Assembly: GCA_964450955.1 (NCBI GenBank)
Contig: CAYVFI010000032.1
Span: 8,491 to 72,490 of the forward strand
Length of the DNA stretch: 64,000 bases
Direction: 5' to 3'
Source: an uncultured Planctomycetaceae bacterium
GTDB lineage: Bacteria > Planctomycetota > Planctomycetia > Planctomycetales > Planctomycetaceae
Shown here: in pieces, positions 8,292 to 52,052 of the stretch
How the letters are laid out: every line of letters starts with the position of its first letter
Numbering within the stretch: the first letter of the stretch is position 1
The notes under the pieces: generated by a model
What the model saw: the letters and a program-made list of their open reading frames with translations, nothing else
What the model was told of the DNA's origin: nothing
Database searches by the model: none
Position numbers and translations under genes: made by a program

Positions 8292-8441
8292 GGTCTGTCT
8301 CCAAAGTGGTAAATGGGGTTTGGTCAAATGGATTGTGTCTTGAATTGCATCCGACCGAAAGTTCAAACATCGGTAAAGAGCACGGTTTGTCTCACGCACT
8401 GGCATTCTGTGCCCACCAGCTTCACGATATAGGAATACCGT

Positions 8442-24016: not shown

Positions 24017-25492
24017 TCACTTCCAGCCCGCACCCTTCGTGCTGGTTTTCACTCGGCAGACAAATGCGTCAGCCGTGATATAAAGAGTCGTTCCATCGCC
24101 GCCCCAGCCGCAGTTGGCTGTCGCCTGACCGGTATCGATTCGACCCAGTGGAGTTCCATCCGGTGCGAAGACATGAACGCCGCCGGGGCCGGTGGCGAAC
24201 AGGTTGCCTGCTTTGTCGACCTTGAGACCATCGGGTAGTCCCTTCATCTTGCCGACCAATGAGGTCGCGTCGAAAAAGACTTTGCCCGGGCCAATGGTTC
24301 CATCGTCTTTGACGGGGAACGCTTTCCAGATGGCGGCCTTCGGATCTGACTGGGCGACATACAGAGTTTTCTCATCGGGAGAAAACGCGATGCCGTTTGG
24401 CCTGGTCATCTCTTTGGTCAGCAGCGTTAGCTGGCCGTCTTTTGAGAGACGGTAGACGCCGCAGAAGTCGAGTTCCCGACGTGGGTCGTCAAACCGTTTC
24501 GGAAGCCCGTACGGCGGATCCGTGAAATATAGATCGCCGTTGGATTTGAAGCAGGCGTCGTTGGGGCTGTTAAGCCGCTTGCCCATGTAGTTGTCAACGA
24601 GAGTCCGCTTGCCGCCGTCTTTCGTTATCACAGACACGCGGCGATCGCCGTGTTCGCACGAAACCAAACGACCCATGGAATCCAGCAGCAAGCCGTTGCA
24701 ACCAGGTTCTCCACCGTACTTGCTGACGCCAGTGAAACCTGACGGCTTCAGATACACCTTCGCTTCGCTCCAACCTTCCCGCCACTGATACACTGAGTTG
24801 CGCGGGATGTCAGAGAATAGAAGCGAACCGCCTTCGTCGTCGGCGACCCAGACAGGCCCTTCCGACCAGTCGTGGCCTTTGGCCAGTACTTCGATTGACG
24901 CTCCAGTCGGAATCAGTTTGTCGAACCGTGGATCCAGACGAACGATGTTGCCAAAGCCAGAACCTGCTGACGCGCTTGCCTGAGCCACGCCAAGTTCTTT
25001 TAGCTTACGAACAAGATCGCTACCCGCGTTTCGTGTTCCACCCCGCTCGATTGCGGCGATCTTGCCGTTCTTGTCGATGTAGATTGTCTTGCGAGCCGGA
25101 TACAGCCGGTTTGGGTTCGTGACGACACCGTATGCCATCGCGACCTTGCCGGTTGGATCACTGAGAATTGGATAGTCGAGATCAAGGTTCCTGGCGAACC
25201 GGGTATTGATCTTGATGGGGTCACAACTGGCGGTGAAGTAGGCAACGTCGAAGGCCTTAATGGCTTTGCCGCTCTCACGGAGCGACTTGCATTGAGCCGT
25301 TCAACCGCCGGTTTCGGCCTTTGGGAACCATGACAGCACGACGGCTTTGCCTTTCATGTCAGCAAGTGCGTAAGTCTTGCCATCACTACCCTGCAAGCTG
25401 AAGTCAGGCGCGGTGTCGCCCACGCTAAGTTGTTGGGCAGATGCGGGAATCGCACATGCCAGCAGTGCGGCCAAAACTGTTGCGGCACGCAT
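24017..25492 (-). CDS. Fusion protein: BCP-type peroxiredoxin with selenocysteine at the peroxidatic position (in-frame TGA at 25301..25303) plus an SMP-30/gluconolactonase/LRE-like beta-propeller
   Basis: ORF 25301..25585 ends ...[13 protein letters not shown]. Reading through the TGA continues in frame as [65 protein letters not shown]...[13 protein letters not shown] and joins ORF 24017..25138. The region aligns residue by residue with E. coli Bcp (FYPKAMTPGCTVQAC; CP=Cys45 becomes U, CR=Cys50 conserved). The likely start is [20 protein letters not shown] (signal peptide, ATG at 25492). Confidence 0.6.
25268..25286 (-). promoter_or_regulatory. Candidate bacterial SECIS hairpin downstream of the UGA at 25301..25303
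   Basis: The mRNA after the UGA is ACGGCUCAAUGCAA then GUCGCUC-CGUGA-GAGCGGC. This is a 7 bp stem (one G.U pair) with a 5 nt loop containing G and U, starting 15 nt after the UGA. Confidence 0.4.
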
Positions 25493-26916: not shown

Positions 26917-28134
26917 TTACCGCTCTGTAAGCAGTTCCTTCACAAGTTCTTCATATCGCGCGCGAAGCTTTTTGTAGGCTTCGCCGGTGGCGGGGCCGCT
27001 GAATCCGGTGTACACGGCGCGCACACTTCCGTCGGCTCGAACAAAAATGGTGGTCGGGTACGAACGCACTTTGTCGATCAGCGGGAACTGCCTGGTCGCG
27101 GTGGACTTGTCTGACAAACCCGCCAGCAGAACCGGATACTGTGTGTTGTGGCGTTTGATGTATCGCTTCACCATTTCGACATCACGATCGAACTCGCCCG
27201 TGTGTTCGAACGCCAGGCCCACAATCGAAAGGCCACGCGGACCGTACTTGTTTTGCAGTTCAGAAAGATACAGGGCCGCGTCATGACAGTTGGGACACCA
27301 CGAACCAAACACCTGAATGAGCCGCGCTTTGCCGGCGAATTTTGGGTCACCCAGCGACGTCAGTTTGCCGTCAAGATCCGGGTACTTGATGTCGTTTAAG
27401 TTCACATCCTTAAGCACCGTGGACAGCCGGAACGCGTCGGGCAGTTCGGCCTTCGGATCCAGCTTCCCCGCGAATGTCTCGTGCCAGCTGTTACCCGACC
27501 AAAAATCACCGGCCAGCGTTCCATCTTCTTGTCGCTGCATCCGAAACAAAAACGCATGCGCGCCGTCGAAGACTGAGAGTTCAACGGAGTCCGGTTTCGC
27601 TGGCGGCTGAATTGTCAGGAACCGATAGTCGCCCGTTGTTGTGAGGAACGTGCCCCACGGCGCGTTGTCGGTTTTTCGAATGGAGAAGACACCCAGCGCG
27701 GGGTCATCGCTTTCAGAAAACTTCACGGACCACTTACCGACGTATGGTTTGAACGCAGCGTCTTGCGATGGAACCGATGACATTGGCCGCGCGACGAATT
27801 TCATCTCGCCGTAGCGTTCTTTGCCACGCCGTTTGCGGTATTGACCGACCAACTGATCGCCGTCAAGCCTGGCTTTTATCGTAGAATCGTAGTGTGGGAA
27901 CGACAGCGTGATGTTGTCGCCGTCCACCCGGACCATTGGGATTTCGATTCTCTCCAACGGATCCGAAATCGCGGCCGACCATTTGCCATCGCTGGAAGAA
28001 AGCAGCAGCGGGAACCGAATTGGCCCGCCCGGTGTTTGCAATTGAGCGTCATATTGGCCCGGTTTGATATCGGCCGCGTAAAGATTGCCTGCAGTCAGGG
28101 ACAGCAGGAACACGAAAATGACAGGGCGATACAT
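26917..28134 (-). CDS. TlpA-like thioredoxin-family protein (Cys form, WCPNC) with a large N-terminal domain; secreted
   Basis: The C-terminal thioredoxin fold has active site VFGSWCPNCHDAALYL. The start is set at MYRPVIFVFLLSLTAGNLYA (signal peptide). Confidence 0.75.
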   Translation of the reverse strand: MYRPVIFVFLLSLTAGNLYAADIKPGQYDAQLQTPGGPIRFPLLLSSSDGKWSAAISDPLERIEIPMVRVDGDNITLSFPHYDSTIKARLDGDQLVGQYRKRRGKERYGEMKFVARPMSSVPSQDAAFKPYVGKWSVKFSESDDPALGVFSIRKTDNAPWGTFLTTTGDYRFLTIQPPAKPDSVELSVFDGAHAFLFRMQRQEDGTLAGDFWSGNSWHETFAGKLDPKAELPDAFRLSTVLKDVNLNDIKYPDLDGKLTSLGDPKFAGKARLIQVFGSWCPNCHDAALYLSELQNKYGPRGLSIVGLAFEHTGEFDRDVEMVKRYIKRHNTQYPVLLAGLSDKSTATRQFPLIDKVRSYPTTIFVRADGSVRAVYTGFSGPATGEAYKKLRARYEELVKELLTER

Positions 28135-28207
28135 GCGACTCTCCAGTAGGGAGAATGCAACGTACCAGTCGAAGTGACCGCATTCCACTCAACCGCCGGA
28201 CGGGCTT

Positions 28208-34840: not shown

Positions 34841-35512
34841 ATGGCGGGCATGCACACAAGCATCACCATGCTGCTTGACGCCGGAAAACACCGTGACGCC
34901 AACGCGTGGGCTCGGCTTGCAAAGGCTTACGAGCCACTTATTACGAAATGGATACGGCAACTGGGTGTTGGGTCGTCTGATGTTGCGGACCTCACGCAGG
35001 ACGTGCTTCTTGCGCTCGCGTCGGATCTCGAACACTTCAACCACAATGGCCGGATTGGTGCCTTTCGCAATTGGCTGCGAACGATTGCCGTGAACCGCTG
35101 CCGCCGGTACTGGACCGCGCAAGGCCGTCGGGTTGATACGCCGGACGTGGAAAGGCAGCTTGACCAGCTGGCAGATCCGCAAAGTGAGCTAACCAGACGC
35201 TGGGACTTAGAACACGACCAATTTGTGCTGCAGCAACTGCTGAATGATTTGCAGTTCGTCTTTGATAAACGGTCGATTGAAGTGTTCCATCGCGTCACAC
35301 TTCTGTCTGAGCCGCCCACCGACGTGGCTCGAGAGTTTGGCCTGACGACCGGGCATGTTTATAAGATAAAATTTCGTGTGATGCGAAAACTTGAGCAGGC
35401 TGCCAGCGAGCTGAATGACGATATCTTGTCCAGGCCGCACTTCAATCTGGCTGATAAAGCCGATGACAAAGCTGCGATGAAACGGACTCCGGATAAACGA
35501 CGCCACGGATGA
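34841..35512 (+). CDS. ECF-type RNA polymerase sigma-70 family factor
   Basis: The start ATG at 34841 is preceded by GGAG. Region 2-like and region 4-like segments are present (VARNVAARN...; LQFVFDKRSIEVFHRVTLLSEPPTDVAREFGLTTGHVYKIKFRVMRKL). Its stop overlaps the start of the downstream kinase gene (ATGA). Confidence 0.8.
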   Translation: MAGMHTSITMLLDAGKHRDANAWARLAKAYEPLITKWIRQLGVGSSDVADLTQDVLLALASDLEHFNHNGRIGAFRNWLRTIAVNRCRRYWTAQGRRVDTPDVERQLDQLADPQSELTRRWDLEHDQFVLQQLLNDLQFVFDKRSIEVFHRVTLLSEPPTDVAREFGLTTGHVYKIKFRVMRKLEQAASELNDDILSRPHFNLADKADDKAAMKRTPDKRRHG

Positions 35513-38406
35513 GCGATCAGGCAATTGATTTTGAAGGGCATCACCCTGACTCTGATACGCTGGAACAATACCTCAGCGATGCACTTCAGGATCCGCAGGC
35601 AAGTTCAGTCGGCGCGCACATCGACTGCTGTGCTGAGTGTCAGACAACGCTTGAGGAAATGACAAACTCGTTTCGTGTTGCCGCTAAGCTGCGCGATGCC
35701 GATTTTTCGAGATCGAATTTCGTCAACAACCAAAGCCCGGTAACACACGACAAAGCCGCGGATCGGTTTACATTGAAGGAGGAGATCGCGCGCGGCGGTA
35801 TGGGCATTATCTATCGCGCACACGATCAGGAACTTGATCGCGAGGTCGCAGTTAAGGTGCTCGCACGCGAACAGTCGGTAGCCAGGGCGCGGTTCGAACG
35901 CGAATCGCGGCTGTCAGCGCGATTGCAGCATCCGGGCATCGTTCCCATCCACCAATCCGGAACATTGAGCGACGGTCGCACATTCATTGCCATGAAACTG
36001 GTTGCCGGAAACACTCTTCGGGCACTGATTGACGAACAACCCGACGCGCGACAACGGCTGCAGCTTCTTGATGTCTTTCACCAGGTGTGTCAGGCCGTCG
36101 CGTATGCGCACAGCGCGGGGATTGTTCATCGCGATCTGAAACCGTCGAACATCATGGTTGGTGAGTTCGGTGAAGTGCAGGTCATGGACTGGGGCATCGC
36201 GAAAGTCTGGGCGACAGACAAGTCACCGACTGCGCAAACGGACCTGGACGTCTTAATGTCGGTTGACGTCACTCGTTATGGCAGTGTTGTCGGAACACCG
36301 GCGTACATTCCGCCCGAACAAGCTCGAGCGGAACCGGCAGATTGCCGAGCGGATGTTTTCGCACTGGGTGGCATTCTTCTTGAAATTATGACCGGGCTGC
36401 CGCCTTTCCACGGGCAAACTTCGACCGAAGCTTTGAAGAAATCTGCCGCCTGTGACACGTCGGGCATTCAGCAACTTCTCAATCTGGCTGAGGCGGATTC
36501 ATTGCTGCTGGCACTCGCAAAGGACTGTCTGGCGGCCGATCCGCAAAGCCGCCCGGCAGACGCGAGTGTTGTCAGCGATCGCCTGCAGGCCTACTTCTCA
36601 AGTCGTGACGAACGCCTGCGTGCGGCTGAGTTCGATAAGGTACGATCGACAGAGCGTCTGGCTGCGGAAGTCAAACGCCGCCGGCAAACCTTGCTGTTCG
36701 GCGTGGTCGTCGTGGTCGGGCTCATCGCAGCGCTGGGGCTGTCGATCCTTTATCTCAACGAAAAGAATACACGGCAGACCGAACGACTGCAGGCCAATCG
36801 AGATGCTCGCGAACGCAGGTTGGATCGCGAATCGAAAGTACGAGTACTGATTGCTAAAGCAACATCGCTACAGGCGCAGGCAGCCAGTGCCAGCAAACAG
36901 AACCAATACCAACTTTGGCAGGACGCCCAGCTGGAACTAAACAAGACCTCCGGACTGACTGACCGTGAACTTGATCCAGGACTTCAGGCCACTCTGGCGT
37001 TAGTGCGTGAGCAAGTTGATACACAGGTTGCCTCGGCTCGAGAGCGCCTCGAACGTCAGCGGGCCGAACAGCGGATTGTCGACGCAATTCGCGCGGCCAT
37101 CACGCGATCGCAATCGCCGGATACGCTCATGCAGTTCAACCCGGAATCGGCTATCGCTGAAAGCCTTGAGGATTCGTTCGCAAAGTTTGGACTCACCGTT
37201 GGCTGCGATTTCCAGCAAAGCGTGACGCAGATTGGTGACAGCGAACACGTCAACGAATTCCTTGCTGGTCTGAACCTCTGGCGTCGCCAAACATCAGATT
37301 CGGACGCAGAGCAGTGGTTTGGCTCATTAATTGACGCGTTGGACAACAACGAATTCCGCAGGAATCTGCGTGCCTACGCACAGGCCGGCGATCGTGCGGC
37401 TGTTACAGCGGCGGCGGACGACGATTCTGCTCTGGATTCGGTTTTGTCAGTACACACCATGATTAACAGCCTTGAATCGATCAAAAACATGTCGCGCCTG
37501 AAGACCTTCTTGCACGCGGCCCATACGCGGTTCCCGGATGACATGGAAATAAACTGGACGCTGGGGTGTCTCTACGCGCAGGCCTATCCGCAGAGTTCTC
37601 GACTCGCGATCCGGTACTTTCTGGTCTGTCTTGGACTGCAGCCGGACAACCCAGGCGTGTTGATAAATCTGTCATACCATGCGGCTCGCGATGGAGACTC
37701 TGAGGGCGCACGCGAGTATGCCGAACGACTAACGCACGTCGCGCCGAACTATCCCCAGCCATGGGTGAACCTGACGAAGCACTACGGCCAGAAGGGCAAC
37801 CTGAAAAAGTCGCTGGAGTGCGCAGACCGAGCCATTGCCATTGCGCCGAACTTCGCCACCGCACATCGAAATCGCGCAGTGGCGTTGCGAATGTTGGAAC
37901 GCTACGACGATGCACTTGCGTCGGTTGAACGCAGCATCGAACTGGAACCGCACAACCCGGTCGGCTACGGCTACCTTGCGGAGATCTATGAGGTAAGCGG
38001 CAAACCAGACCAGGCTCTCAAAGCCGCGCAAGCTGCAGTCGATCAAAGCCGATCGTCGCTGACAAGCCTTCTTTACCTGGCCCGCTTCCATGTTCGTCAG
38101 AACAACGATGAACTCGCGCTACCGATTTACCGCAAGCTCACCCGCCGGTTCCCCAACGCGTCGGCGGCATGGAAGGATTACACTACGTTGCTGCTACGCA
38201 CAAAGCGCTACGAAGAGGTTGTGACTCGCCTTAGCAAACCCGGCAAGGGGCTCCGTCTTACCAGCCAGCTTAAGCAGGCTCTCGCAATCGCCAGGCGTGA
38301 ACAAGGCAACCAGGCCACGACGCTCGAAACTGCTGTCGAATCGTTGTCCGACGACACGCCGGCTACTGGTCAGTCACAGGATCGCAGTGCCCAGGACAAT
38401 CGGTAG
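35509..38406 (+). CDS. Ser/Thr protein kinase with an N-terminal anti-sigma-like zinc-finger motif, a TM segment and C-terminal TPR repeats
   Basis: 965 aa ORF. The N-terminus has a H-x3-C-x2-C motif (GAHIDCCAECQ). A Hanks kinase domain follows (VAVKVL, HRDLKPSNIMV, DWGIAK, GTPAYIPPE). A hydrophobic segment lies around residue 390, and TPR repeats follow. Confidence 0.85.
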   Translation: MSDQAIDFEGHHPDSDTLEQYLSDALQDPQASSVGAHIDCCAECQTTLEEMTNSFRVAAKLRDADFSRSNFVNNQSPVTHDKAADRFTLKEEIARGGMGIIYRAHDQELDREVAVKVLAREQSVARARFERESRLSARLQHPGIVPIHQSGTLSDGRTFIAMKLVAGNTLRALIDEQPDARQRLQLLDVFHQVCQAVAYAHSAGIVHRDLKPSNIMVGEFGEVQVMDWGIAKVWATDKSPTAQTDLDVLMSVDVTRYGSVVGTPAYIPPEQARAEPADCRADVFALGGILLEIMTGLPPFHGQTSTEALKKSAACDTSGIQQLLNLAEADSLLLALAKDCLAADPQSRPADASVVSDRLQAYFSSRDERLRAAEFDKVRSTERLAAEVKRRRQTLLFGVVVVVGLIAALGLSILYLNEKNTRQTERLQANRDARERRLDRESKVRVLIAKATSLQAQAASASKQNQYQLWQDAQLELNKTSGLTDRELDPGLQATLALVREQVDTQVASARERLERQRAEQRIVDAIRAAITRSQSPDTLMQFNPESAIAESLEDSFAKFGLTVGCDFQQSVTQIGDSEHVNEFLAGLNLWRRQTSDSDAEQWFGSLIDALDNNEFRRNLRAYAQAGDRAAVTAAADDDSALDSVLSVHTMINSLESIKNMSRLKTFLHAAHTRFPDDMEINWTLGCLYAQAYPQSSRLAIRYFLVCLGLQPDNPGVLINLSYHAARDGDSEGAREYAERLTHVAPNYPQPWVNLTKHYGQKGNLKKSLECADRAIAIAPNFATAHRNRAVALRMLERYDDALASVERSIELEPHNPVGYGYLAEIYEVSGKPDQALKAAQAAVDQSRSSLTSLLYLARFHVRQNNDELALPIYRKLTRRFPNASAAWKDYTTLLLRTKRYEEVVTRLSKPGKGLRLTSQLKQALAIARREQGNQATTLETAVESLSDDTPATGQSQDRSAQDNR

Positions 38407-42002: not shown

Positions 42003-42239
42003 ACGGTGTGAGCCGACGTGGTTGAGGTACTTTGCGCCTGTTTGTTTTAGTGAGCGCTGCTGCCTTCCGCGACGGCGTCATCGATCGGTGAGCCCGTCGG
42101 TGAGGAACAACGCGTTCAGCCGCTGAAACATCCGCGGGAGCCACTGTTGCTTCTTAGGCCTCGGTTTCCCGTTGCCGATGTTGTAGCCCGGGGTTAGAGC
42201 TTCGCAGTTCGTCGTCGAGACGCCAGATGAGGTTTTGTT

Positions 42240-42550
42240 CCTCGCTCACGCTTCGGGTTTTCATTGTTGCCGGGTTGTCCGGCTTTCGAGCGCGAGCAAC
42301 TATTTGGTCGATCATGTCCCGTTGGAAAGCGGCATCTTTGGAGTCAGCGTTCACTGTGTTTCTCGCAATGGTAACCCGACGCGTAAGCGAGGAAGCTCCT
42401 GCTTACGTTCTCGGCTCCTGCTTACGTTCTCGCTTACGCTTCGGGTTGTCATTTTTGGTTCCTGCTTACGTTCCTGCTTACGTTCTCGCTTACGTTCTCG
42501 CTTACGCTTCGGGTTGTCATTTTTGGTTCCTGCTTACGCTTTGGGTTTCC
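42240..42550. repeat. Cluster of REP-like palindromic repeats (left flank of the RAYT gene)
   Basis: Multiple copies of CTCGCTTACGCTTCGGGTT and the inverted partner GGTAACCCGACGCGTAAGCGAGG. There are 12-mer sub-repeats (CCTGCTTACGTT / CTCGCTTACGTT) and a duplicated ~60 bp block. Confidence 0.8.
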
Positions 42551-43031
42551 GGTCTTGTCCTTCAAGTGTGTACTGGACAACTTGATCAAGTCCGTCATCA
42601 TCAAAGATCCAACGAATACTGCCGCGTTCGGCCCACCAATTTTCCGTTTTCTGTGGCAGTGCGGCTTCTTTGAGTCGGCGAGTACACCACGCTTTCAGAT
42701 CAGCTCGAACTTTTTTTGGTGGAGTCTCGAACGCTCCCACGACTGCATGCATGTGGTTGGTCCGACAATTGACGGCGTGGCAAATCCACTTCCGATGATC
42801 GCAAGTTTCGCGAATCTGGGTTTCGACAATTTGACGTTGTTTATGGCTGAGAATCCTGGCTTCTTCACGCATCTTTGCCGCAGCCTCCAGTTCACGCACG
42901 GGATCCGGTAGCTGCCAACCCTTCTGATATTCGACCCATCCACGCTGATCGCCCGGCAGCCAGGTTCCGTAAGTCGCGATGGTGATAAAGAAGGCAATTG
43001 GATCGTTCATCAGGTAACTCCTTCGGAGCAA
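42534..43031 (-). mobile_element. REP-associated tyrosine transposase (RAYT; HuH-Y1, IS200/IS605 TnpA-like)
   Basis: 165 aa ORF with the HuH motif NHMHAVV. The C-terminal block WAERGSIRWIFDDDGLDQVVQYTLEGQ matches the RAYT consensus W-x-R-x-x-S...L...Y-x3-N/Q, including the catalytic Tyr. It is flanked on both sides by REP-like repeats. Confidence 0.7.
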
Positions 43032-43094
43032 GTGGTCCTAACACTGGAAACCCGAATCGTCAGCGAGGGGCGCACGGGATGCCATCCAGTATAT

Positions 43095-43235
43095 CCTCGC
43101 TTACGCTTCGGGTTTCTGTTTGCTGTCGTCCTCGCTTACGCTTCGGGTTTTCATTGTTGGGTGTCGCTTACGCTTCGGGTTTTTATTGCTGTGGTCTCGG
43201 TTGCTTTTTGGCTTGGTAACCCGACGCGTTAGCGA
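43095..43235. repeat. Cluster of REP-like palindromic repeats (right flank of the RAYT gene)
   Basis: Three copies of (C)CTCGCTTACGCTTCGGGTT followed by the inverted GGTAACCCGACGCGTTAGCGAGG. Confidence 0.8.
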
Positions 43236-43364
43236 GGTTCCTTTTGCTTCTGAAGCGTCCGCCATCGTAGTCTCGCATTTTTCCGATCAGGTGCATCATC
43301 AAACGAAAAAAGCCCTTGTGAGATGAAGTGACATAGGCGTGCACTTCAACGCACAAGGGCTTAA

Positions 43365-43458
43365 CGGGAATGGATGGGAATCGAACCCACCTGGCGACTT
43401 TTCAGCCGCCACAACGGATTTGAAATCCGCGGCAGTCACCAGATCTGCGAACACTCCC
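43365..43458 (-). tRNA. selC: Candidate selenocysteine tRNA (anticodon UCA)
   Basis: The minus-strand sequence is GGGAGTG-TTC-GCAG-ATCTGGTGA-CTGC-C-GCGGA-TTTCAAA-TCCGT-TGT-GGCGGC-TGAAAA-GTCGCC-AG-GGTGGG-TTCGATT-CCCATC-CATTCCC-G. The acceptor stem is 7 bp and the T stem 6 bp, giving a 13 bp coaxial acceptor/T domain. The anticodon loop is UUUCAAA, with U33, anticodon UCA and A37. The variable arm is long (6 bp stem, 6 nt loop). The T-loop is TTCGATT, the discriminator is G73, and CCA is not encoded. The D-arm fold is ambiguous by eye. Confidence 0.65.
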
Positions 43459-43894
43459 CCGGTGATCCTTCGATGATACCGTCGAAGCAACGGCATTCAA
43501 CCACGGGTCCGGTCTTTGTACGACTCGCCACTGATTGGGTTCTATTCGGCTGTTTGAACCCTGGAACGACTTTGCGAACGATGTCGGTACTCAATCATCG
43601 TGACAAGCCAGATGGGATCGGCGGCGACCTTCACCACAGTGCGGGCCCGGATGCGGGGCGGAATTGGGCGAAATGGTTCTGTGGGACGCACTGACGGTTA
43701 GCGGCAATTCCTGCCGTTTAGTGTTTTCAGGTGTACGTTCCTGCTCACCCGAAGCTTGGCGCACAAGACAAGCGCTTAGCTGTTTCGTTGCTAACACTTC
43801 AAAACGGGGCACTCGCCGATCTCGCTGAGCGGGTGTGTCGATACAAGCAGGAAGCTGTCTTTGCTCCTGAGGCTGTCAATTACGGAAGACTGCA

Positions 43895-45682
43895 ATGAGA
43901 TGCCGCGTCCTGGGTTGTGCCGCCTGCATGTTGGTTGTCGTCAGTCTGGTAGGTTCGCCGACGTTCGCGGGTACATTTCCGATTAACGGTCCCGAGGACG
44001 CAGTTCGAATCAGGACCCGTGTTCGGGCGGCTCAATTCCTGACGCATGCCACTTACGGTCCGAAGTACGATGAGATTCTGAGCCTGGCGAAACGGATGGA
44101 GCAGATTGGTGTCCGACCGGCTTGCGAGGAATGGATTGATCGGCAGTTTAAACTTCCGATCACGAAGCATCAGTCGATGGTTTATGCGATGTTGGAGGCA
44201 GACAATATCGACCCGCTGGAGTACCGCCAGGATGGTAAGCGGTTCCGTCAGCATGCGTGGTGGACTGCGGCTCTGTCAGCAGAAGATCAGCTTCGCCAAC
44301 GAATGGCGTTTGCTCTGATGCAGTTCTTTGTTGTTGGTGACAGCGGCCAGAGCTTCAATAACCACCGCATAGACAGCAGTGGCAACGTGCGATTCACCGG
44401 AATCGTAAACTACTACGACATGCTGTTGGAGAACTCGTTCGGCTTCTATCGAGAGACGCTGGAAGACGTTACGTACCACCCCATCATGGGCGTCTGGCTA
44501 AGCCACCTGGGCAACCGCAAGCCAGATACTTCGATCGACCGTTTTCCTGATGAGAATTTCGCTCGAGAGATCATGCAGTTGTTTTCAATCGGATTGCATC
44601 AGCTAAACCAGGATGGGACACCAAAACTGGATGACGCAGGCCGCCTGATTCCCACCTACGACAACGAGACCGTCAGGGCCTACGCACGAGTCTTTACAGG
44701 ATTCGTGTACGCTAGAGGCACCGGTCTTGATCGAGCGAAAAATCTGCACGAACGAATGCAGCTGCTTGAGAGTGAACACGACACCGCAAGGAAAGTTGTT
44801 CTGGACCGAGTGATTCCCGCCGGCCAGTCAGCCAGCGACGACATTCGCATGGCTCTTAACAGCATCAACAAGCACCCCAATGTTGGCCCGTTTCTGGCTC
44901 GACACCTGATTCAGCGGTTCGTGCAGTCAAACCCTGCGCCGGCGTATGTCAGGCGGGTTGCGAATGTCTTCAATAACAACGGCAACGGCCGCCGCGGTGA
45001 TTTTAAAGCCGTACTCAAGGCCGTCCTGTTGGATAACGAGGCATTCAGCGGAGTCCGAATTTCGATTCGCGAGGATGAGGTTCGCGTGCGATCTACCGAT
45101 GGCGAAAGTAGTCGGCTACGCGAACCTATTCTTCGTTATGCGGCATTCCTGCGAGCGTTTGATGCGAAGTCGGACCACTTGACCGGCCGATTCATGATTC
45201 CTGACATGTACCCGATTTGGGATCAGGCGAACTACAAATCGCCAACCGTCTTTAACTTCTTCTCATCAGGTTTTCGTCCGCCCGGGATCCTGATGGACTA
45301 CCGGCCAGAGAAGGTCCTGCCACATGATGTGCTGGTTGCTCCTGAGTTTCAGATCCTGACGACTCGGACGGCCAACCAGATAGCGAATCAGCTTCGAGAC
45401 GACGTGATGGATGCAAGCGCCGACTTTAAGTTGGGCAGCGTTCCGAATGGTCGCTCTTTTAGCACGAGTGTTGCTTTGGATTTCAGCAGGGTGCGAAACA
45501 TGACGGGGCCATCTCGCATCGTGCAGCGTCTGGATCTCATGCTATGTCACGGGACCTTAAGCGATGAGACGCAGAAGGTAATCCGGAACGCGATCGCAGA
45601 GGAAACCGACGACCATGAAGAACGCATCCGTGCCGCGATTCTTTGCGTGCTGACTTCGCCGGACTGCATCATCAGCGAATAG
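43895..45682 (+). CDS. DUF1800 domain protein, secreted
   Basis: 595 aa ORF with a signal peptide. It is followed 65 nt downstream by a DUF1501 gene, the canonical DUF1800/DUF1501 pair. Confidence 0.8.
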   Translation: MRCRVLGCAACMLVVVSLVGSPTFAGTFPINGPEDAVRIRTRVRAAQFLTHATYGPKYDEILSLAKRMEQIGVRPACEEWIDRQFKLPITKHQSMVYAMLEADNIDPLEYRQDGKRFRQHAWWTAALSAEDQLRQRMAFALMQFFVVGDSGQSFNNHRIDSSGNVRFTGIVNYYDMLLENSFGFYRETLEDVTYHPIMGVWLSHLGNRKPDTSIDRFPDENFAREIMQLFSIGLHQLNQDGTPKLDDAGRLIPTYDNETVRAYARVFTGFVYARGTGLDRAKNLHERMQLLESEHDTARKVVLDRVIPAGQSASDDIRMALNSINKHPNVGPFLARHLIQRFVQSNPAPAYVRRVANVFNNNGNGRRGDFKAVLKAVLLDNEAFSGVRISIREDEVRVRSTDGESSRLREPILRYAAFLRAFDAKSDHLTGRFMIPDMYPIWDQANYKSPTVFNFFSSGFRPPGILMDYRPEKVLPHDVLVAPEFQILTTRTANQIANQLRDDVMDASADFKLGSVPNGRSFSTSVALDFSRVRNMTGPSRIVQRLDLMLCHGTLSDETQKVIRNAIAEETDDHEERIRAAILCVLTSPDCIISE

Positions 45683-45747
45683 TCGGGGCGCACCAGACAT
45701 CGTCAGGCCGGCTCTTAAGTTGACCACTCATATCCACGGACGGAACT

Positions 45748-47148
45748 ATGTACCCTCTCAATTTGGCTCAGGCCCTCAGTCGTCGGAACGTGCTTAAGCT
45801 TGCAGGTGGTTGTGCAGCCATGACGGCCGGTTCGGTTTTGTCGACGATCACAGGCCTAAGCCTTACCAGGTCCGCATGGGCGGCCGCTCCGACGTCGGTT
45901 GAGGACGATTACAAGGCACTGGTTTGTATCTACCTGTTTGGTGGGAACGATTCTTTCAACATGTTGGTACCGCGAGAAGCGGAGGAATACCAGGATTACT
46001 CTGAGGCTCGCCAGCAGATGGCTCTGGCCTCAAAAGACTTGTTGCCGATCAGCGACCAGAGCGGCCGGGCGTTTGGGCTGCATCCGGCCATGACCGACCT
46101 GAAGAAGATCTACAACGACGGTGATCTTGCTTTCGTTTCCAACGTAGGTGCTCTTGTACGCCCGACAACACTGGCTGACTATCGCCGCAATCTGGCGTTG
46201 CCGGTTGGGTTGTTCTCACACCCCGACCAGTCGCGCCACTGGCAGACGTCAATTCCTGAGTCGCGTACAGGTGTGACGGGCTGGGCGGGACGGATGGCGG
46301 ACATTTTGAATGATTCGACGAATGACAATCCGCACATTGCGATGAACATTGCAATCGATTCTGTGAACCTGTTTCAGACAGGACGCGAAGTCGTCCCTTA
46401 TGTCGTCAAAGCAAAAAAGCTGGCCGGATACCGAAAGACAGCCCGCGCGATGGATCGAATCTATACGCGGGCGACCGACGAGATGCTGGATCGTCGATAC
46501 TCAAATGTTATGGAGCAGGCTTTTGCAACGGTGAAACGCGGCTCTGTCGATGCTGCGATTAGTTACGCCAAAGCGATTAACGGTGTTTCCTCTGACATTC
46601 CGTTTCCCAACACGCAGCTTGGCAATCAGCTTGAACTTATCGCTCGAACCATCACAGCGCGAGAAACACTGGGTCAGAAGAGACAGGTATACTTTGCGCT
46701 GGTTGGTGGCTGGGACTTCCACGACGAAGTTCTCAATGCCCAACGCGACCTGCTGAAACAGGTGAACGATGCATTTGCTGCGTTCAATTCGGCGATGAAA
46801 GGAATGGGCATCCATGACAAAGTCACGACATTCACCGCGTCGGACTTCGGACGCACGCTAAGTTCAAATGGAAACGGAACCGACCATGCCTGGGGCGGCA
46901 ATCAAATGATTATGGGTGGTGGAGTGCAGGGGGGTGTGTTCGGTCAGTACCCCGGTTCGCTAAGAGACGACAAGTTGAACATTGGACGCGGGCGTCTTCT
47001 GCCGACTACGTCAGTGGATGAGTTTAACGCAGAGCTTGCAATGTGGTTTGGGATCGACAACGGCAACAGCCTTGAAGCGATCCTGCCCAACATTCGCCGC
47101 TTCTACAACGCAGGTTTGACAAGAGGTCCGCTTGGCTTCATGGGATAG
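45748..47148 (+). CDS. DUF1501 domain protein with a TAT signal
   Basis: 466 aa ORF. The N-terminus is MYPLNLAQALSRRNVLKLAGGCAAMTAGSV. Conserved DUF1501 C-terminal blocks are present (DHAWGGNQMIMGGGVQGG). Confidence 0.85.
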   Translation: MYPLNLAQALSRRNVLKLAGGCAAMTAGSVLSTITGLSLTRSAWAAAPTSVEDDYKALVCIYLFGGNDSFNMLVPREAEEYQDYSEARQQMALASKDLLPISDQSGRAFGLHPAMTDLKKIYNDGDLAFVSNVGALVRPTTLADYRRNLALPVGLFSHPDQSRHWQTSIPESRTGVTGWAGRMADILNDSTNDNPHIAMNIAIDSVNLFQTGREVVPYVVKAKKLAGYRKTARAMDRIYTRATDEMLDRRYSNVMEQAFATVKRGSVDAAISYAKAINGVSSDIPFPNTQLGNQLELIARTITARETLGQKRQVYFALVGGWDFHDEVLNAQRDLLKQVNDAFAAFNSAMKGMGIHDKVTTFTASDFGRTLSSNGNGTDHAWGGNQMIMGGGVQGGVFGQYPGSLRDDKLNIGRGRLLPTTSVDEFNAELAMWFGIDNGNSLEAILPNIRRFYNAGLTRGPLGFMG

Positions 47149-47565
47149 AACCGTGGTCGTAACTCGCAATGACTGCGAACAGTCCTTGCTGTTCTCTTCG
47201 CCGCGTCGATTGTGTCACTCCAACACCACGTGCGGTGCAGTTGTTTGACTGCTATCTGAAGCTTCGCCGCGAATGTAAAACGGCGAAGGCTGTTCTTTCC
47301 TGTCGGCACGCTCTTTGCATTGCTCTGCCTCAGCAAACTTTTCGCGGTTTGACGGAGAGAACACGGGTGTCGAATCTTATCCCATACCAGGATCTGCTGG
47401 CCCTTTCTGTGTGACGACCAGCGTACCAGAATCGGGCAAAAGGTCACATGGCTCGCTGTCGCTGGAATTGGTGGGCGTTCCCAGCGAGAATCATCGGCAG
47501 CAATACTGCGTATTATCCGGCTCCGCGACATCGGTGGCCCCGGTCTTCACACAGAGGAATACATC

Positions 47566-48705
47566 ATGAGAGAACTCAACATCGGCGTCGTGGGCTACGG
47601 CTTTATGGGTCGGACACACTCCAACGGCTACAAACGCGTTAATGACTTTTTCGATCCGGGTATTCGGCCGGTTCTGAAAGCCATCTGTGGTCGGAACGAA
47701 GAGAACGCGAAGGCGTTCGCTGAGAAGTGGCAGTACGAGTCGTACGAGACCGATTGGAAGAAGCTAATCGAACGCGATGACATCGACGCGATTGATATCT
47801 GCACGCCCAACAATACGCATGCCGAAATTGCCATCGCTGCAGCTAAGGCTGGCAAGATGGTTCTTTGTGAGAAGCCGCTGTCGATGACGGTCGCTGAAGG
47901 CGAAGAGATGTGCGACGTCATCGATAAAGCGGGCGTTGCCAACACCGTTTGGTACAACTACCGTCGCGTTCCGGCTGTGACCATGGCCAAGCAGCTAATT
48001 GATGAAGGTCGGTTGGGTCGAGTCTTCCATTACCGAGCGAACTTCCTGCAGGACTGGACCATTGCAGAAGACGTGCCGCAGGGTGGGGCCGCGTTGTGGC
48101 GACTGGATGCGGCGGCAGCCGGTTCAGGTGTGACGGGTGACCTGTTGGCTCACTGTATTGACACTGCACTTTGGCTGAATGGCAACATCACGACGGTGAG
48201 TGCGATGACAGAAACGTTTGTCAAAGAACGCATGCACGCCGAAACTGGAAAGGTGCAGAAGGTCAGCATTGACGACGCGTGTGCGTTCCTGTGCCGGTTT
48301 GGTAACGGTTCCATGGGGCTGTTTGAATCGACTCGCTACGCCCGTGGTCACAAGGCGCTTTACACGTTTGAAGTGAACGGTGAGAACGCGTCTATCAAGT
48401 GGGATCTGCACGATCTGCATCGCCTGGACTACTTCGACCACAGCGACGAAGGCAAGCTGCGAGGCTGGCGTTCGATTCATGTGACTGACCACGACGGCGA
48501 ACAGCCTTACATGGATAAGTGGTGGGTTCCCGGCCTGCAGATTGGCTACGAACACACTTTCGTGCACCAGGTGGCGGACTTCCTGCAGGCGGTAAACGAT
48601 GGGACTCCGTGTCCTCCAACTTTCCGGGACGCTTTGGAGACTCAAAAGGTGTGCGAGTCGGTTCTGGCGAGTGCGAAAGATGGCACGTGGCAGCAGATCA
48701 GCTGA
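47566..48705 (+). CDS. Gfo/Idh/MocA family NAD(P)-dependent oxidoreductase
   Basis: 379 aa ORF with an N-terminal Rossmann motif ([22 protein letters not shown]) and family-typical blocks ([14 protein letters not shown]). Confidence 0.85.
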
Positions 48706-48837
48706 TTCTGGCGTCAGAAAAGCGCGGTCTGGGGGTGGCTTAAGCAGTCGCCCGCAGGTCGGGCTTTGTTATAATCGGGATAGGTCGGAGCAGTCATTTC
48801 GCTCCGGCCTTTCTGTTTGGCTTGAAGGAAAAGAATA

Positions 48838-49323
48838 ATGGAACGCCAACCAATCTCTCGCGCTGGCTACGAAAAGAAGAAAGAAGAGATCCGGGTACTG
48901 GAAGAAGAAGTGCTGCCCGAGATCACTGAGAGGATCAAAGAGGCACGCGAAGAGGGCGACCTGAAGGAGAATGCCGAGTATCACGCTCAGCGTGAACAGC
49001 AGGGTATGGTTGCTGCAAAAGTCGCTCAGTTGAAAACGCTGCTCAATGGTTGCCAGATCGTTGACCGAGCCAACATGCCCAAGGGCGTTGTCACATTCGG
49101 AAGTCTCATCACCGTCAAAGACCTCTCTGACGGAATGGAAGAGCAGTACGAACTGGTCGGTCCGGGAGAAGAAGACTACGACGGCGAAATTATGAAAATT
49201 CTGACCAGCAGCCCGATCGCTCAGTCGATGATGGGCAAGAAGGTTGGCGATGTTGTCGAAGCTGACATTCCGGCAGGGAAGCTGAAGCTTGAGATCGCGG
49301 CGATTGAAGAACCACCTGAATAA
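48838..49323 (+). CDS. greA: Transcription elongation factor GreA
   Basis: 161 aa ORF with full-length GreA similarity (coiled-coil N-terminus ...[19 protein letters not shown]..., FKBP-like C-terminus). Confidence 0.9.
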
Positions 49324-49370
49324 TCACCAGGCGACAGTTGGTTCACTTCGATGCTTTGGAGTGATTGAAC

Positions 49371-49415
49371 AAAAAAAAGGCGAGCAACCAATTGGTTGCT
49401 CGCCTTTCTTGTCTT
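49371..49415. terminator. Bidirectional Rho-independent terminator between greA (+) and a convergent minus-strand ORF
   Basis: An AAAAAAAA run is followed by GGCGAGCAACC-AATT-GGTTGCTCGCC and then TTTCTTG. This is an 11 bp perfect stem with an A-run on one side and a T-run on the other. Confidence 0.6.
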
Positions 49416-50069: not shown

Positions 50070-52052
50070 TTAGCTGCCTGGGCGACTTACCTGGTAGCGT
50101 TTCAGTTTCCGGTCCAGGGTCGATCGCTCAATCCCCAGCAACTGAGACGCCTTGGACTTGTTCCAATCGGTATGGTCCAGCGTGGCCAGAATATGTTGAC
50201 GTTCAAGATCAGCGATCGCTGACGGAGTCCATGCCTGGCCTCCTGTCTGCGGCTGCAAGGGTTCAGGTTTTCGGTTCAGACGACTTAGCTGGATATCTGA
50301 CGCGCAGACCAGTTCACCGCCGCACAGGATGACTGTACGTTCAATTGTATTTTGCAGTTCTCTGACATTTCCGGGCCATGAATAATCCAGCATCAACTGC
50401 ATGGCGTCTTTGGTGAATCCATTAATTGGCCGACCCGTTTTCTGTACAAATTTCTTGAGGAAGAACTCAGCCAGCAGAGGAATGTCGCCGTCTCGATCTT
50501 TTAACGATTGAACGCGAATTTCTGCGACATTCAGCCGGAAATACAAGTCGCTGCGGAACTCGCCTTCTTCAACGGCTTCTTCGAGATCTCGGTTGGTGGC
50601 GGCCACGACACGCACATCAACCTGAACGGGCTTCCGCCCGCCCACCCGTTCAAACGGATGTCCTTCCAGCACCCGCAGGAACTTCGCCTGGATCGCCGGA
50701 GCCATTTCGCCAATTTCGTCAAGAAACAGCGTTCCCTTATGAGCTTGTTCGAATCGGCCCGCGGTCTTTTCTGTCGCGCCGGTAAACGCGCCTTTTTCGT
50801 GCCCGAATAGTTCGCTCTCAAGCAGACTTTCGTTCAAAGCTGCGCAGTTCATGCAGACAAAAGGTCCGGCGCTGCGGCTGCCGTGAATGTGTATGGATCG
50901 AGCGACCAGTTCTTTACCGGTGCCGCTTTCTCCGCGAATCAGGACCGTCGCTTCGGTGGGAGCCAGCAGTCCGATTTGCTTTCGCAGATCTTCAACCGCC
51001 GGACTTTGGCCGATGATTTCGCTTGCGATTTCCAGTTGGTCAATCAGATTTTTCTTCTGAACCTCAGCTTGCGCCAGTCCGCTGGCCAGTGACTCGCGTT
51101 CTTTTAACTGATCGACGGCTGTTGCCATCTGGTCAGCGACGGCGATGGTGAAGTTGAGTTCGTTCTCATCCAGCGGGTTATCCGGATTGGCTGAGTACAG
51201 ATGGACCAGTCCATGGAATCGATCGCCACACCGAATCGGAGCGCAGATGACGCTCATGGCTTTGAGTTCACCGAGGCTGTCGAACACGGCAAGTTCAGTA
51301 TCTTCTGAGACATCGCGAGCCAGAATGGCTTCTCGATCTCTGACCACAATGTCGGACAGGCTGGCTGAGAGCCTGTGGTAAGGCTGGTCGTCTCGCGAGT
51401 AGTACGCGGCCACTTTCAGATGCTTCGAATGTGGCGCAAGCTCTTTGCCTTCTTTCATCAGAAGTATTGCGGCAATGTCGGCAACGGTTTCGTCAGCCAG
51501 ACTGGTGAGCACAACATCGGCGAGTGCCTGCCGTGACTTTGCCGCGCCAAGTTGAAGACCCAGTTTGTAAAGCTTCGCAAGTTCCGCCCCGCCGGCAGAC
51601 TGGAAGCTCGCGTGATCCTGACGCGAAAGAATTGCTGGTTCTGCATCCAGTTGCCCCGCGCGTGTGTCTGTGTCTTCGTCAACTGGTGGCGATTCGGGTA
51701 GTTCCGTCGGGTCGTCGGTGAACGCCAGCTGAGTTCCGCCTATTTCAATAATCTGGCCTGGTTCCAGAGGCCAGTCGCCTTCGACTTCTTCCCCGCCAAT
51801 CGTCGTTCCGTTTCGGCTGTCCAGATCGCGCAAGAACCACTGATTGTTGGCCTTGAAAATTTCGCAGTGGTTACGACTGCAAATATCATCGCGCAGAACC
51901 ACCTTGTTTGCCGGCGCGCGGCCGATGGTGGTGACCTGATTAGGGGCCAGCCGAACCATGTCGTGCCAGCCACGTCCGTCCCAGCCCAGCAAATAGCCCC
52001 ACTCGACGGCAGAACCGGTTGTGGTTGAAGTTTCGTCCATTGCAATCCGCAC
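50070..52052 (-). CDS. Sigma-54-dependent transcriptional activator with N-terminal FHA and GAF domains and a C-terminal Fis-type HTH
   Basis: 660 aa ORF. The FHA domain is recognisable ([25 protein letters not shown]...[11 protein letters not shown]). The AAA+ sigma-54 interaction domain has [15 protein letters not shown] and GAFTGA. The C-terminal HTH is [17 protein letters not shown]. Confidence 0.85.

What the first reader, a model, noticed from the sequence alone, without database searches (positions are those of the whole stretch)
43365..43458. Candidate tRNA-Sec (anticodon UCA) on the minus strand
The minus strand folds into a tRNA with anticodon loop UUUCAAA: U33, anticodon UCA that pairs with UGA, and A37. 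It has a 6 bp variable-arm stem, a canonical T-loop TTCGATT, discriminator G73, and a 13 bp coaxial acceptor plus T domain, read here as 7+6. No ordinary elongator tRNA carries UCA. The long variable arm and the extended acceptor/T stack are the structural hallmarks of tRNA-Sec, which bacterial SelB needs for recognition. Its presence fits the two in-frame UGA redox genes in the same window. A RAYT/REP insertion lies about 130 bp from its 3' end.
Basis: partly seen in the sequence, partly recalled or inferred. Interest (0 to 1): 0.8.

Follow-up and report, generated by a model that had tools for sequence, protein, structure and literature searches.

The report
Selenocysteine tRNA gene, 7/6 helix variant
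This is a genuine, ordinary selenocysteine tRNA gene (selC) of a planctomycete; its one mildly unusual feature is that the 13-base-pair acceptor/T helix is split 7+6 rather than the textbook bacterial 8+5.

Summary
Window 43365..43458 (minus strand) is a tRNA-Sec gene. ARAGORN calls tRNA-SeC(tca) at those coordinates. Rfam RF01852 scores 65.6 bits against a gathering score of 47 (E 4e-11, full length). The fold beats all 200 shuffles (z -4.45). In 13 Planctomycetota homologues, 14 base pairs carry compensatory changes.

The window holds two UGA-containing redox genes. Each UGA aligns with a catalytic Cys of solved homologues (TlpA WCxPC; Bcp peroxiredoxin TPGCT) and is followed by a SECIS-like hairpin.

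The window has no selA, selB or selD, and the source genome could not be searched. In five related loci the same tRNA type lies next to selA, and in two of them also selB; all score above curated cut-offs.

U8 faces C, which is no pair, while that C pairs with the G 5' of the T-stem. Ten relatives do the same. Four Pirellulaceae are true 8/5 (C8:G).

A 7/6 tRNA-Sec was proposed for mycobacteria in 2026. This is therefore a new member of a known kind, and interest is low.

The RAYT-like ORF and REP cluster downstream are real. That they are an insertion is not shown.

The parts
43365..43458 (-). tRNA-Sec (selC), 94 nt, anticodon UCA, G73, no encoded CCA. 7 bp acceptor + 6 bp T-stem, 6 bp D-stem with bulged A15 and UGGU loop, 8 bp variable stem.
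   Evidence: ARAGORN; Rfam RF01852 65.6 bits, GA 47; fold z -4.45; covariation in 13 homologues.
43473..43500 (-). Promoter-like site: -35 TTGAAT, 16-nt spacer, -10 TATCAT, ending 15 nt upstream of the tRNA 5' end.
   Evidence: Consensus scan. The same arrangement occurs at the same offset in L012 (identical), L030 (TTGTTC/TAGCAT) and L038 (TTGACT/TACCAT). Function is inferred.
43300..43362 (-). Terminator-like hairpin (21-nt arms, 90% complementary, 11-nt loop) starting 3 nt after the tRNA 3' end, followed by TTTTTTCGTTT.
   Evidence: Inverted repeat I10; sequence. The scanner missed it because its loop limit is 8 nt.
6942..8456 (-). TlpA/thioredoxin-fold selenoprotein gene. In-frame TGA at 7374..7376 in the motif FWGNW-U-GPC. 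The likely start is the signal-peptide-like MRHSG at 8291.
   Evidence: Read-through ORF; AhpC-TSA, Thioredoxin_8 and Redoxin domains span the UGA; U aligns with the first Cys of TlpA WCVPC, 1jfu, E 2.7e-16.
7331..7350 (-). SECIS-like hairpin of the TlpA-like gene: 8 bp stem UCACGAGC/GCUCGUGA with a GGUC tetraloop. The stem starts 27 nt from the U of UGA and the loop starts at nt 35.
   Evidence: Fold of 7310..7376 (-). The 67-nt z-score is only -2.1.
24017..25492 (-). Secreted peroxiredoxin(Sec)-SMP30/gluconolactonase fusion gene, 491 codons. In-frame TGA at 25301..25303 in the motif PKAETGG-U-TAQC (PxxxTxxU).
   Evidence: Read-through ORF; AhpC-TSA residues 24-147 plus SGL residues 209-474; U aligns with the peroxidatic Cys of Bcp-type Prx, 5epf TPGCT.
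25268..25286 (-). SECIS-like hairpin of the Prx gene: 7 bp stem GUCGCUC/GAGCGGC with a CGUGA loop, stem starting 18 nt from the U of UGA.
   Evidence: Fold of 25237..25303 (-). Statistically weak (z -0.7).
42243..43249 (.). Neighbouring RAYT-like ORF (42534..43031, -) flanked by 10 copies, in both orientations, of a REP-like element with core CGCTTACGCTTCGGGTT. It lies downstream of the tRNA and is not part of the tRNA gene.
   Evidence: Repeat families D1-D4 and I1-I11; 11 hits against 0.21 expected; Y1_Tnp 21.3 bits, below GA 23; IS200 and REP_Tyr_transpos models far below cut-off; HUH motif NHMHAVV and C-terminal Tyr.

Best explanation
This is the functional selC gene of a planctomycete.

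The proposed pathway is the established bacterial one, inferred for this organism and not tested here:
1. The gene is transcribed from its own promoter and ends at the hairpin plus T-run immediately downstream.
2. The transcript is trimmed, and CCA is added after transcription because none is encoded.
3. SerRS charges the tRNA with serine, using the long variable arm and G73.
4. SelA converts Ser to Sec with selenophosphate from SelD, recognising the 6 bp D-stem and tetraloop.
5. SelB carries the tRNA to UGA codons that are followed by a SECIS hairpin, recognising the 13 bp acceptor/T helix.

Two such UGA codons lie in this window, at the catalytic residue of a TlpA-like thiol-disulfide oxidoreductase and of a peroxiredoxin-gluconolactonase fusion.

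The 13 bp helix is most likely partitioned 7+6. U8 is unpaired, as in ordinary tRNAs, and G68:C86 forms a sixth T-stem pair. The total length matches the usual bacterial 8+5, but the junction is shifted by one pair.

The confidence of 0.93 is for the claim that this is a functional tRNA-Sec gene. For the 7/6 partition specifically, I put it at about 0.7.
For: Shown:
- ARAGORN tRNA-SeC.
- RF01852 at 65.6 bits against GA 47, full length.
- Fold z -4.45.
- Cloverleaf covariation in 13 Planctomycetota homologues: 94.8% of cells paired against about 48% when partners are slid, and 14 pairs with compensatory changes. These include D-stem pair 16:23 (CG 6, UA 6, AU 1) and all 8 variable-arm pairs.
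- Thirteen nt lie between the T-loop and G73 in the window and in all 35 homologues whose ends could be parsed.
- Junction: C86 pairs with G68 in 10 of 10 U8-type sequences, while U8-C86 is no pair. In three Pirellulaceae the same column is G and pairs with C8 (a fourth).
- The 7/6 model is -43.5 kcal/mol against -41.2 with that pair open. All 11 U8-type sequences fold 7/6.
- L030 differs by one base, which turns G5-U into G5:C.
- selA (TIGR00474, 417-522 bits, cut-off 268) lies next to the same tRNA type in L003, L007, L031, L035 and L036. selB (TIGR00475, 357 and 315 bits, cut-off 242) lies next to it in L003 and L007.
- Two UGA genes in the window have U at catalytic Cys positions and SECIS-like hairpins. 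Both families are catalogued selenoprotein families (PMC13188914).
- A promoter-like site is conserved in position in four relatives, and a terminator hairpin follows the gene.

Inferred: expression, charging, and use by SelA and SelB in this organism.
Against: - No selA, selB or selD is in the 64 kb window.
- The source genome is not among the genomes hit in the collection scan (the closest, L030, differs by 1 nt), so the machinery could not be checked in this organism.
- The G:C pair that defines 7/6 is invariant within the clade, so it has no compensatory change of its own. G68 is also invariant in sequences where it cannot pair.
- Half of the wider sample (18 of 36) has a purine-purine or C-A mismatch at this position, so a Watson-Crick 13th pair is not universally required.
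- The SECIS fold statistics are weak (z -2.1 and -0.7).
Confidence: 0.93

Rival explanations
1. The gene is the same functional tRNA-Sec, but it folds in the canonical bacterial 8/5 arrangement with a tolerated U8-C86 mismatch as the eighth acceptor 'pair', and G68 stays unpaired in the variable-arm/T-stem junction.
For: - G68 is invariant in all 36 sequences, including those where it cannot pair, so its presence does not prove pairing.
- 18 of 36 homologues have a non-Watson-Crick opposition at this position, so mismatches are tolerated there.
- No compensatory change exists at 68:86.
Against: - U-C is not a standard pair, while G:C at 68:86 is available in 10 of 10 clade members.
- Forming G68:C86 gains 2.3 kcal/mol, and every clade member folds 7/6.
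- When the junction base is G instead of C, position 8 is C. The junction base therefore tracks whichever partner can pair with it.
- A 7/6 fold has been proposed independently for mycobacterial tRNA-Sec (PMC13449736).
Confidence: 0.22
2. The gene is a relic or orphan: an intact-looking tRNA-Sec in a genome that has lost selA, selB or selD. It would then be silent or act as a Ser-inserting UGA suppressor.
For: No Sec machinery gene is in the window, and the source genome was not searchable.
Against: - Every helix is intact, and the nearest relatives differ only by pair-preserving changes.
- Promoter and terminator signals are present.
- Two genes in the same window keep an in-frame UGA at an essential catalytic residue, each with a downstream hairpin. 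That would be lethal to those enzymes without Sec insertion.
- Relatives with the same tRNA type carry selA and selB next to it.
Confidence: 0.03
3. The gene is a tRNA-Sec look-alike of another identity: a selC*-type tRNA-Cys(UCA) or an allo-tRNA that reads UGA without the Sec pathway.
For: [quoted passage not shown]
Against: - selC* tRNAs have U73 and an 8/4 branch, and allo-tRNAs have a 12 bp branch (8/4 or 9/3).
- This tRNA has G73 and 13 nt between the T-loop and the discriminator.
- Its type is linked to selA and selB, not to a cysS or selB* copy.
Confidence: 0.01

Closest known systems
Bacterial tRNA-Sec (selC; Rfam RF01852), canonical 8/5 type as in E. coli and Aquifex aeolicus
   Same: - UCA anticodon, G73 and a long variable arm.
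- A 6 bp D-stem with a 4-nt loop.
- A 13 bp acceptor+T helix.
- A G-U wobble as the first pair of the 5 bp T-stem core, invariant in 13 of 13 sequences. From my own knowledge, this corresponds to G49-U65 of E. coli.
- Service to UGA codons in redox enzymes that are followed by SECIS hairpins.
   Different: - The 13 bp are split 7+6, not 8+5. Position 8 is an unpaired U, and the linker to the D-stem is 3 nt.
- The D-stem carries one bulged nucleotide.
- CCA is not encoded.
- The gene is not adjacent to selA or selB in this genome.
Mycobacterial tRNA-Sec, 7 bp acceptor / 6 bp T-stem variant (PMC13449736, RNA Biol 2026)
   Same: The same proposed 7/6 partition, which keeps the 13 bp acceptor-T domain. 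It is likewise predicted from secondary structure and not solved.
   Different: - A different phylum, with no shown sequence relationship beyond the family.
- Nearly all mycobacterial genes encode CCA and lie with selA and selB, according to that paper. This one does neither.
12-bp-branch tRNA-Sec variants (7/5 Cloacimonetes type; 8/4 type) and tRNA-Sec-like allo-tRNAs / selC* tRNA-Cys (PMC5330540, PMC5389517)
   Same: All are departures from the 8/5 rule that standard tRNA-Sec models still detect.
   Different: Those have 12 bp branches, with 7 residues between a 5 bp T-stem and G73, or a 4 bp T-stem. selC* has U73. This tRNA has 13 nt after the T-loop and G73.

Membership tests
Bacterial tRNA-Sec (selC) | Anticodon UCA in a 7-nt loop with U33 and A37 | tested here: met
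   The loop is UUUCAAA. ARAGORN reports anticodon tca.
Bacterial tRNA-Sec (selC) | Score at or above the Rfam RF01852 gathering threshold over the full model | tested here: met
   65.6 bits against 47, E 4.1e-11, model positions 1-91 of 91.
Bacterial tRNA-Sec (selC) | 13 bp acceptor + T-stem coaxial helix (ordinary tRNAs have 12) | tested here: met
   Thirteen nt lie between the T-loop and G73, and all 13 pair as 7+6.
Bacterial tRNA-Sec (selC) | The 13 bp partitioned as 8 (acceptor) + 5 (T), the textbook bacterial form | tested here: not met
   U8 opposite C86 is not a pair. Rfam marks acceptor pairs 8 and 9 of its consensus structure as non-standard. Column 8:90 pairs in 0 of 10 clade members. 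This does not exclude membership, because 7/5, 8/4 and 7/6 variants are accepted in the literature.
Bacterial tRNA-Sec (selC) | 6 bp D-stem closed by a 4-nt loop (SelA recognition element) | tested here: met
   4+2 bp with one bulged A and loop UGGU. Pair 16:23 covaries: CG 6, UA 6, AU 1.
Bacterial tRNA-Sec (selC) | Long variable arm and discriminator G73 (SerRS identity) | tested here: met
   An 8 bp stem with a 4-nt loop, with all 8 pairs showing compensatory changes. G follows the 13th nt.
Bacterial tRNA-Sec (selC) | selA, selB and selD present in the same genome | not testable with these tools
   None is in the window, and the source genome was not retrievable. By proxy, selA and selB lie next to the same tRNA type in five related loci, and SelA is widespread in Planctomycetota.
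Bacterial tRNA-Sec (selC) | Selenoprotein genes with an in-frame UGA at a Cys-equivalent site, followed by a SECIS hairpin | tested here: met
   Two genes: TGA 7376 (UGPC) and TGA 25303 (PxxxTxxU). The hairpins have G/U-containing apical loops, though their fold statistics are weak.
selC* tRNA-Cys / allo-tRNA | U73 (selC*) and a 12 bp branch of 8/4 or 9/3 | tested here: not met
   G73 and a 13-nt 3' strand. Family definitions are from PMC5389517.
12-bp (7/5) tRNA-Sec, Cloacimonetes type | Only 7 residues between a 5 bp T-stem and G73 | tested here: not met
   Eight residues follow the 5 bp T-stem core. The definition is from PMC5330540.
RAYT (REP-associated tyrosine transposase), neighbouring ORF 42534..43031 | Y1 HUH transposase fold scoring above the curated model cut-off | tested here: not met
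   Pfam Y1_Tnp 21.3 bits against 23. NCBIfam REP_Tyr_transpos 18.9 bits against 80, and IS200 20.1 bits against 55.
RAYT (REP-associated tyrosine transposase), neighbouring ORF 42534..43031 | HUH motif, a catalytic Tyr, and flanking REP arrays in both orientations | tested here: met
   NHMHAVV and VQYTLEGQ. Ten REP copies on both strands lie within 42243..43249.

The most novel reading that the evidence does not exclude
A clade of Planctomycetota (Planctomycetaceae-like, Phycisphaeraceae and unclassified MAGs) uses a true 7/6 tRNA-Sec, while neighbouring Pirellulaceae use 8/5. The switch would rest on coupled changes at just two positions: U8 with C86 in one form, C8 with G86 in the other. If so, SelA, SelB and RNase P in these bacteria measure the total 13 bp length and not the position of the acceptor/T junction. 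The junction could then slide within one phylum without loss of Sec decoding. The 7/6 form has been proposed only for mycobacteria so far.
Probability: 0.6. Interest if true: 0.35.

Novelty: new member of a known kind. Interest (0 to 1): 0.2.

Why it matters
It marks this planctomycete as a selenocysteine user. It also means that at least two genes in the window, a TlpA-like oxidoreductase and a peroxiredoxin-gluconolactonase fusion, must be annotated through their UGA and not split or truncated.

The 7/6 partition adds a second phylum to a tRNA-Sec variant reported only recently. It also offers a natural 8/5-versus-7/6 pair within one phylum for asking what SelB and SelA measure on the tRNA. 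This is a refinement of known biology, not a new system.

Tried and rejected
- **Source genome:** The genome-contig scan found no identical tRNA (the closest, L030, differs by 1 nt), so the source genome is not a representative there.
- **Sec machinery of the source organism:** Pfam on 50 ORFs and motif scans found no selA, selB or selD in the window. A SelA homologue search returned thousands of Planctomycetota hits, but none could be tied to this genome, so I abandoned that route.
- **Synteny:** blastn of window 38-50 kb against all loci matched only the tRNA itself, plus about 80 nt upstream in L012. The REP core is absent from all relatives' loci. 'Insertion' of the RAYT/REP block therefore cannot be shown.
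- **Literature:** the search tool cannot take '7/6' or '8/5' as terms. Proxy terms found the mycobacterial 7/6 report. I found no paper on tRNA-Sec structure in Planctomycetes.
- **Further selenoprotein genes:** a six-frame scan for UGA in redox motifs gave only the two genes. All other hits were off-frame noise.
- **Alternative D-arm reading:** I considered a canonical 4 bp stem with a 9-nt loop. I rejected it because pair 16:23 covaries.
- **L021 (Campylobacterales):** excluded from the alignment because its ends were ambiguous.

Full report
**Observation**

The minus strand of window 43365..43458 reads GGGAGTGTTCGCAGATCTGGTGACTGCCGCGGATTTCAAATCCGTTGTGGCGGCTGAAAAGTCGCCAGGTGGGTTCGATTCCCATCCATTCCCG.
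- ARAGORN finds exactly one tRNA in the 64 kb window: tRNA-SeC(tca) at these coordinates.
- Rfam's tRNA-Sec model RF01852 is the only family in the window to reach its gathering score: 65.6 bits against 47, E 4.1e-11, full-length match.
- The strand folds at -45.5 kcal/mol, against -29.05 +/- 3.7 for 200 dinucleotide shuffles. The z-score is -4.45 and no shuffle does as well.

**Anatomy**

The fold has these parts:
- A 7 bp acceptor (1-7 with 87-93).
- A 3-nt linker, U8 U9 C10.
- A D-stem of 4+2 bp with a bulged A15 and the tetraloop UGGU.
- An anticodon arm with loop UUUCAAA.
- A variable arm of 8 bp with a 4-nt loop.
- A 6 bp T-stem (68-73 with 81-86) stacked directly on the acceptor, with T-loop UUCGAUU.
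- Discriminator G, and no encoded CCA.

A promoter-like pair, TTGAAT-16-TATCAT, ends 15 nt upstream of the tRNA. The same arrangement sits at the same offset in three relatives. A 21-nt-arm hairpin followed by a T-run starts 3 nt after the 3' end.

**Relatives**

One scan of the GTDB representative genomes used a pattern for the D-loop, anticodon arm and T-loop. It returned 38 loci, mostly Planctomycetota MAGs. ARAGORN calls tRNA-SeC in 36 of them.

On an alignment of 13 Planctomycetota sequences, the cloverleaf is 94.8% paired. Sliding the partners gives 37-52%. Fourteen pairs carry compensatory changes. These include D-stem pair 16:23 (CG 6, UA 6, AU 1), all eight variable-arm pairs and two acceptor pairs.

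The closest relative, L030, differs by a single base, which converts G5-U into G5:C. The gene is therefore under selection for this structure and is not a chance fold or a decaying copy.

**7/6 or 8/5**

The window and all 35 homologues whose ends could be parsed have 13 nt between the T-loop and G73. The question is who pairs with the junction nucleotide, position 86.
- In the window and 10 other Planctomycetota sequences, position 8 is U and position 86 is C. U-C is no pair, but C86 pairs with the G just 5' of the T-stem. That gives 7/6.
- In four Pirellulaceae sequences, position 86 is G and position 8 is C, a Watson-Crick 8/5.
- Two sequences are ambiguous.
- Eighteen have a purine-purine or C-A opposition at this position.

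On the 13-sequence alignment, column 72:90 is G:C in 10 of 10 U8 sequences. Column 8:90 is C:G only in the three 8/5 sequences.

Forming G68:C86 lowers the energy from -41.2 to -43.5 kcal/mol, and every U8-type sequence folds 7/6. Rfam's alignment flags acceptor pairs 8 and 9 of its consensus structure as non-standard.

The caveats are that the defining G:C has no compensatory change of its own, and that G68 is invariant even where it cannot pair.

**Does it serve Sec decoding?**

The window contains two genes with an in-frame UGA.
- Gene (a), 6942..8456 (-), is a TlpA/thioredoxin-fold protein with the motif FWGNW-U-GPC. The thioredoxin-fold domains span the UGA. U aligns with the first Cys of WCVPC in B. 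japonicum TlpA (1jfu, E 2.7e-16).
- Gene (b), 24017..25492 (-), is a signal-peptide-bearing peroxiredoxin fused to an SMP-30/gluconolactonase domain. Its motif is PKAETGG-U-TAQC. U aligns with the peroxidatic Cys of Bcp-type peroxiredoxins (5epf TPGCT).

Both UGAs are followed by a hairpin with a G/U-containing apical loop. Gene (a) has an 8 bp stem with a GGUC loop, and gene (b) a 7 bp stem with a CGUGA loop. That is the form expected of a bacterial SECIS, although the fold z-scores (-2.1 and -0.7) are not decisive on their own.

Both protein families are already catalogued as selenoprotein families: Prx with PxxxTxxU, and TlpA-like or Redoxin proteins with UxxC (PMC13188914). A Cys-type paralogue (FGSWCPNC) lies at 26917..28188. 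A six-frame scan found no further credible UGA genes.

**Sec machinery**

No selA, selB or selD is in the window (Pfam on 50 ORFs; motif scan). The source genome could not be identified or searched.

By proxy, five loci carry the same 7/6-type tRNA next to selA (TIGR00474, 417-522 bits, cut-off 268). Two of them also carry selB (TIGR00475, 357 and 315 bits, cut-off 242). The gene orders are selB-selC-selA, selB-selA-selC and selA-selC. SelA homologues annotated from Planctomycetota and Phycisphaerales are abundant.

All indirect evidence points to a working system.

**Mechanism**

The mechanism follows the established bacterial pathway and is inferred for this organism:
1. SerRS charges the tRNA, using the long variable arm and G73.
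2. SelA converts Ser to Sec with SelD-made selenophosphate, reading the long D-stem and tetraloop.
3. SelB-GTP binds Sec-tRNA through the 13 bp helix, binds the SECIS hairpin, and delivers the tRNA to UGA.

The G-U wobble that opens the 5 bp T-stem core is invariant in all 13 sequences. From my own knowledge, it corresponds to G49-U65 of the E. coli EF-Tu antideterminant box.

**Comparison with known kinds**

The gene meets every defining feature of bacterial tRNA-Sec except the 8+5 partition. Accepted departures from 8/5 already exist:
- 12 bp 7/5 and 8/4 forms (PMC5330540; PMC5389517).
- A 7/6 form proposed for mycobacteria in July 2026 (PMC13449736).

It is not a selC* tRNA-Cys, which has U73 and an 8/4 branch. 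It is not an allo-tRNA, which has a 12 bp branch. I found no paper describing tRNA-Sec structure in Planctomycetes, though the literature tool cannot search for '7/6' as such.

**Neighbourhood**

Downstream of the tRNA, 10 copies of a REP-like element (core CGCTTACGCTTCGGGTT, both orientations) lie between 42243 and 43249. The window has 11 hits, against 0.21 expected by chance.

They flank a 165-codon ORF with weak, sub-threshold similarity to IS200/RAYT transposases. The ORF has an HUH motif and a C-terminal Tyr.

The RAYT/REP reading is reasonable. That it is an 'insertion' is untested, because no relative is syntenic here and none carries the REP. The rest of the window is typical planctomycete gene content: DUF1501, DUF1549/1553, DUF1800 and sulfatases.

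**Verdict**

This is a real, standard selC gene that ordinary annotation tools find. The only non-textbook aspect is the 7/6 partition shared by a Planctomycetota clade, which is a minor variant with a recent precedent.

I rate it a new member of a known kind, with interest 0.2.

Noticed in passing
window 24017..25492 (-): The Sec-peroxiredoxin domain (residues 24-147) is fused in frame to an SMP-30/gluconolactonase (SGL) beta-propeller domain (residues 209-474), behind a signal peptide. An ordinary gene caller would report only the 373-aa C-terminal part (24017..25138) and lose the Prx domain.
   Followed up: partly
window 6942..8456 (-) and 26917..28188 (-): The window holds a Sec/Cys pair of TlpA-like thioredoxin-fold proteins with long N-terminal extensions. 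One has WUGPC (UGA at 7376) and the other WCPNC. The Sec form also has long acidic, low-complexity stretches near its N-terminus and at its C-terminus.
   Followed up: partly
loci L002, L005, L006, L010, L011, L013-L015, L017, L020, L022, L023, L025, L026, L028, L029, L032 (and L021): In half of the sampled bacterial tRNA-Sec genes (18 of 36), the 13th position of the acceptor/T helix is G-G, G-A, A-A or C-A, whichever partner is chosen (7 + mismatch + 5). A Watson-Crick 13th pair is therefore not universal. The sample is biased by the search pattern.
   Followed up: partly
window 42243..43249; L001 ends: The independent Logan short-read contig (SRR12112860) is 100% identical to window 42509..49405, and both its ends fall in repeats. 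One end lies in the REP array and the other in an inverted 33-nt repeat at 49378..49410. This suggests that repeats fragment assemblies of this organism.
   Followed up: no
window 42227..42673 (+): This 148-codon ORF runs through the tandem REP copies and has no family match. It is most likely an artefact of the repeat array and not a gene.
   Followed up: partly
L003, L007, L031, L035, L036: Gene order around selC varies within Planctomycetota: selB-selC-selA, selB-selA-selC and selA-selC. In the window's subgroup (L018, L019, L030, L038, L039), no selA or selB motif lies within the held flanks of selC.
   Followed up: partly
all U8-type (7/6) loci and the four Pirellulaceae loci: None of the 11 7/6-type genes, and none of the four Pirellulaceae 8/5 genes, encodes the 3' CCA. 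Of the other 21 genes whose ends could be parsed, all encode it.
   Followed up: no
window 20278..21135 (+), 50070..52052 (-), 35509..38406 (+): Other gene content includes an HNH endonuclease ORF, an FHA-GAF sigma-54 activator, and a Ser/Thr kinase with TPR repeats next to an ECF-type sigma factor. No link to the tRNA is apparent.
   Followed up: no
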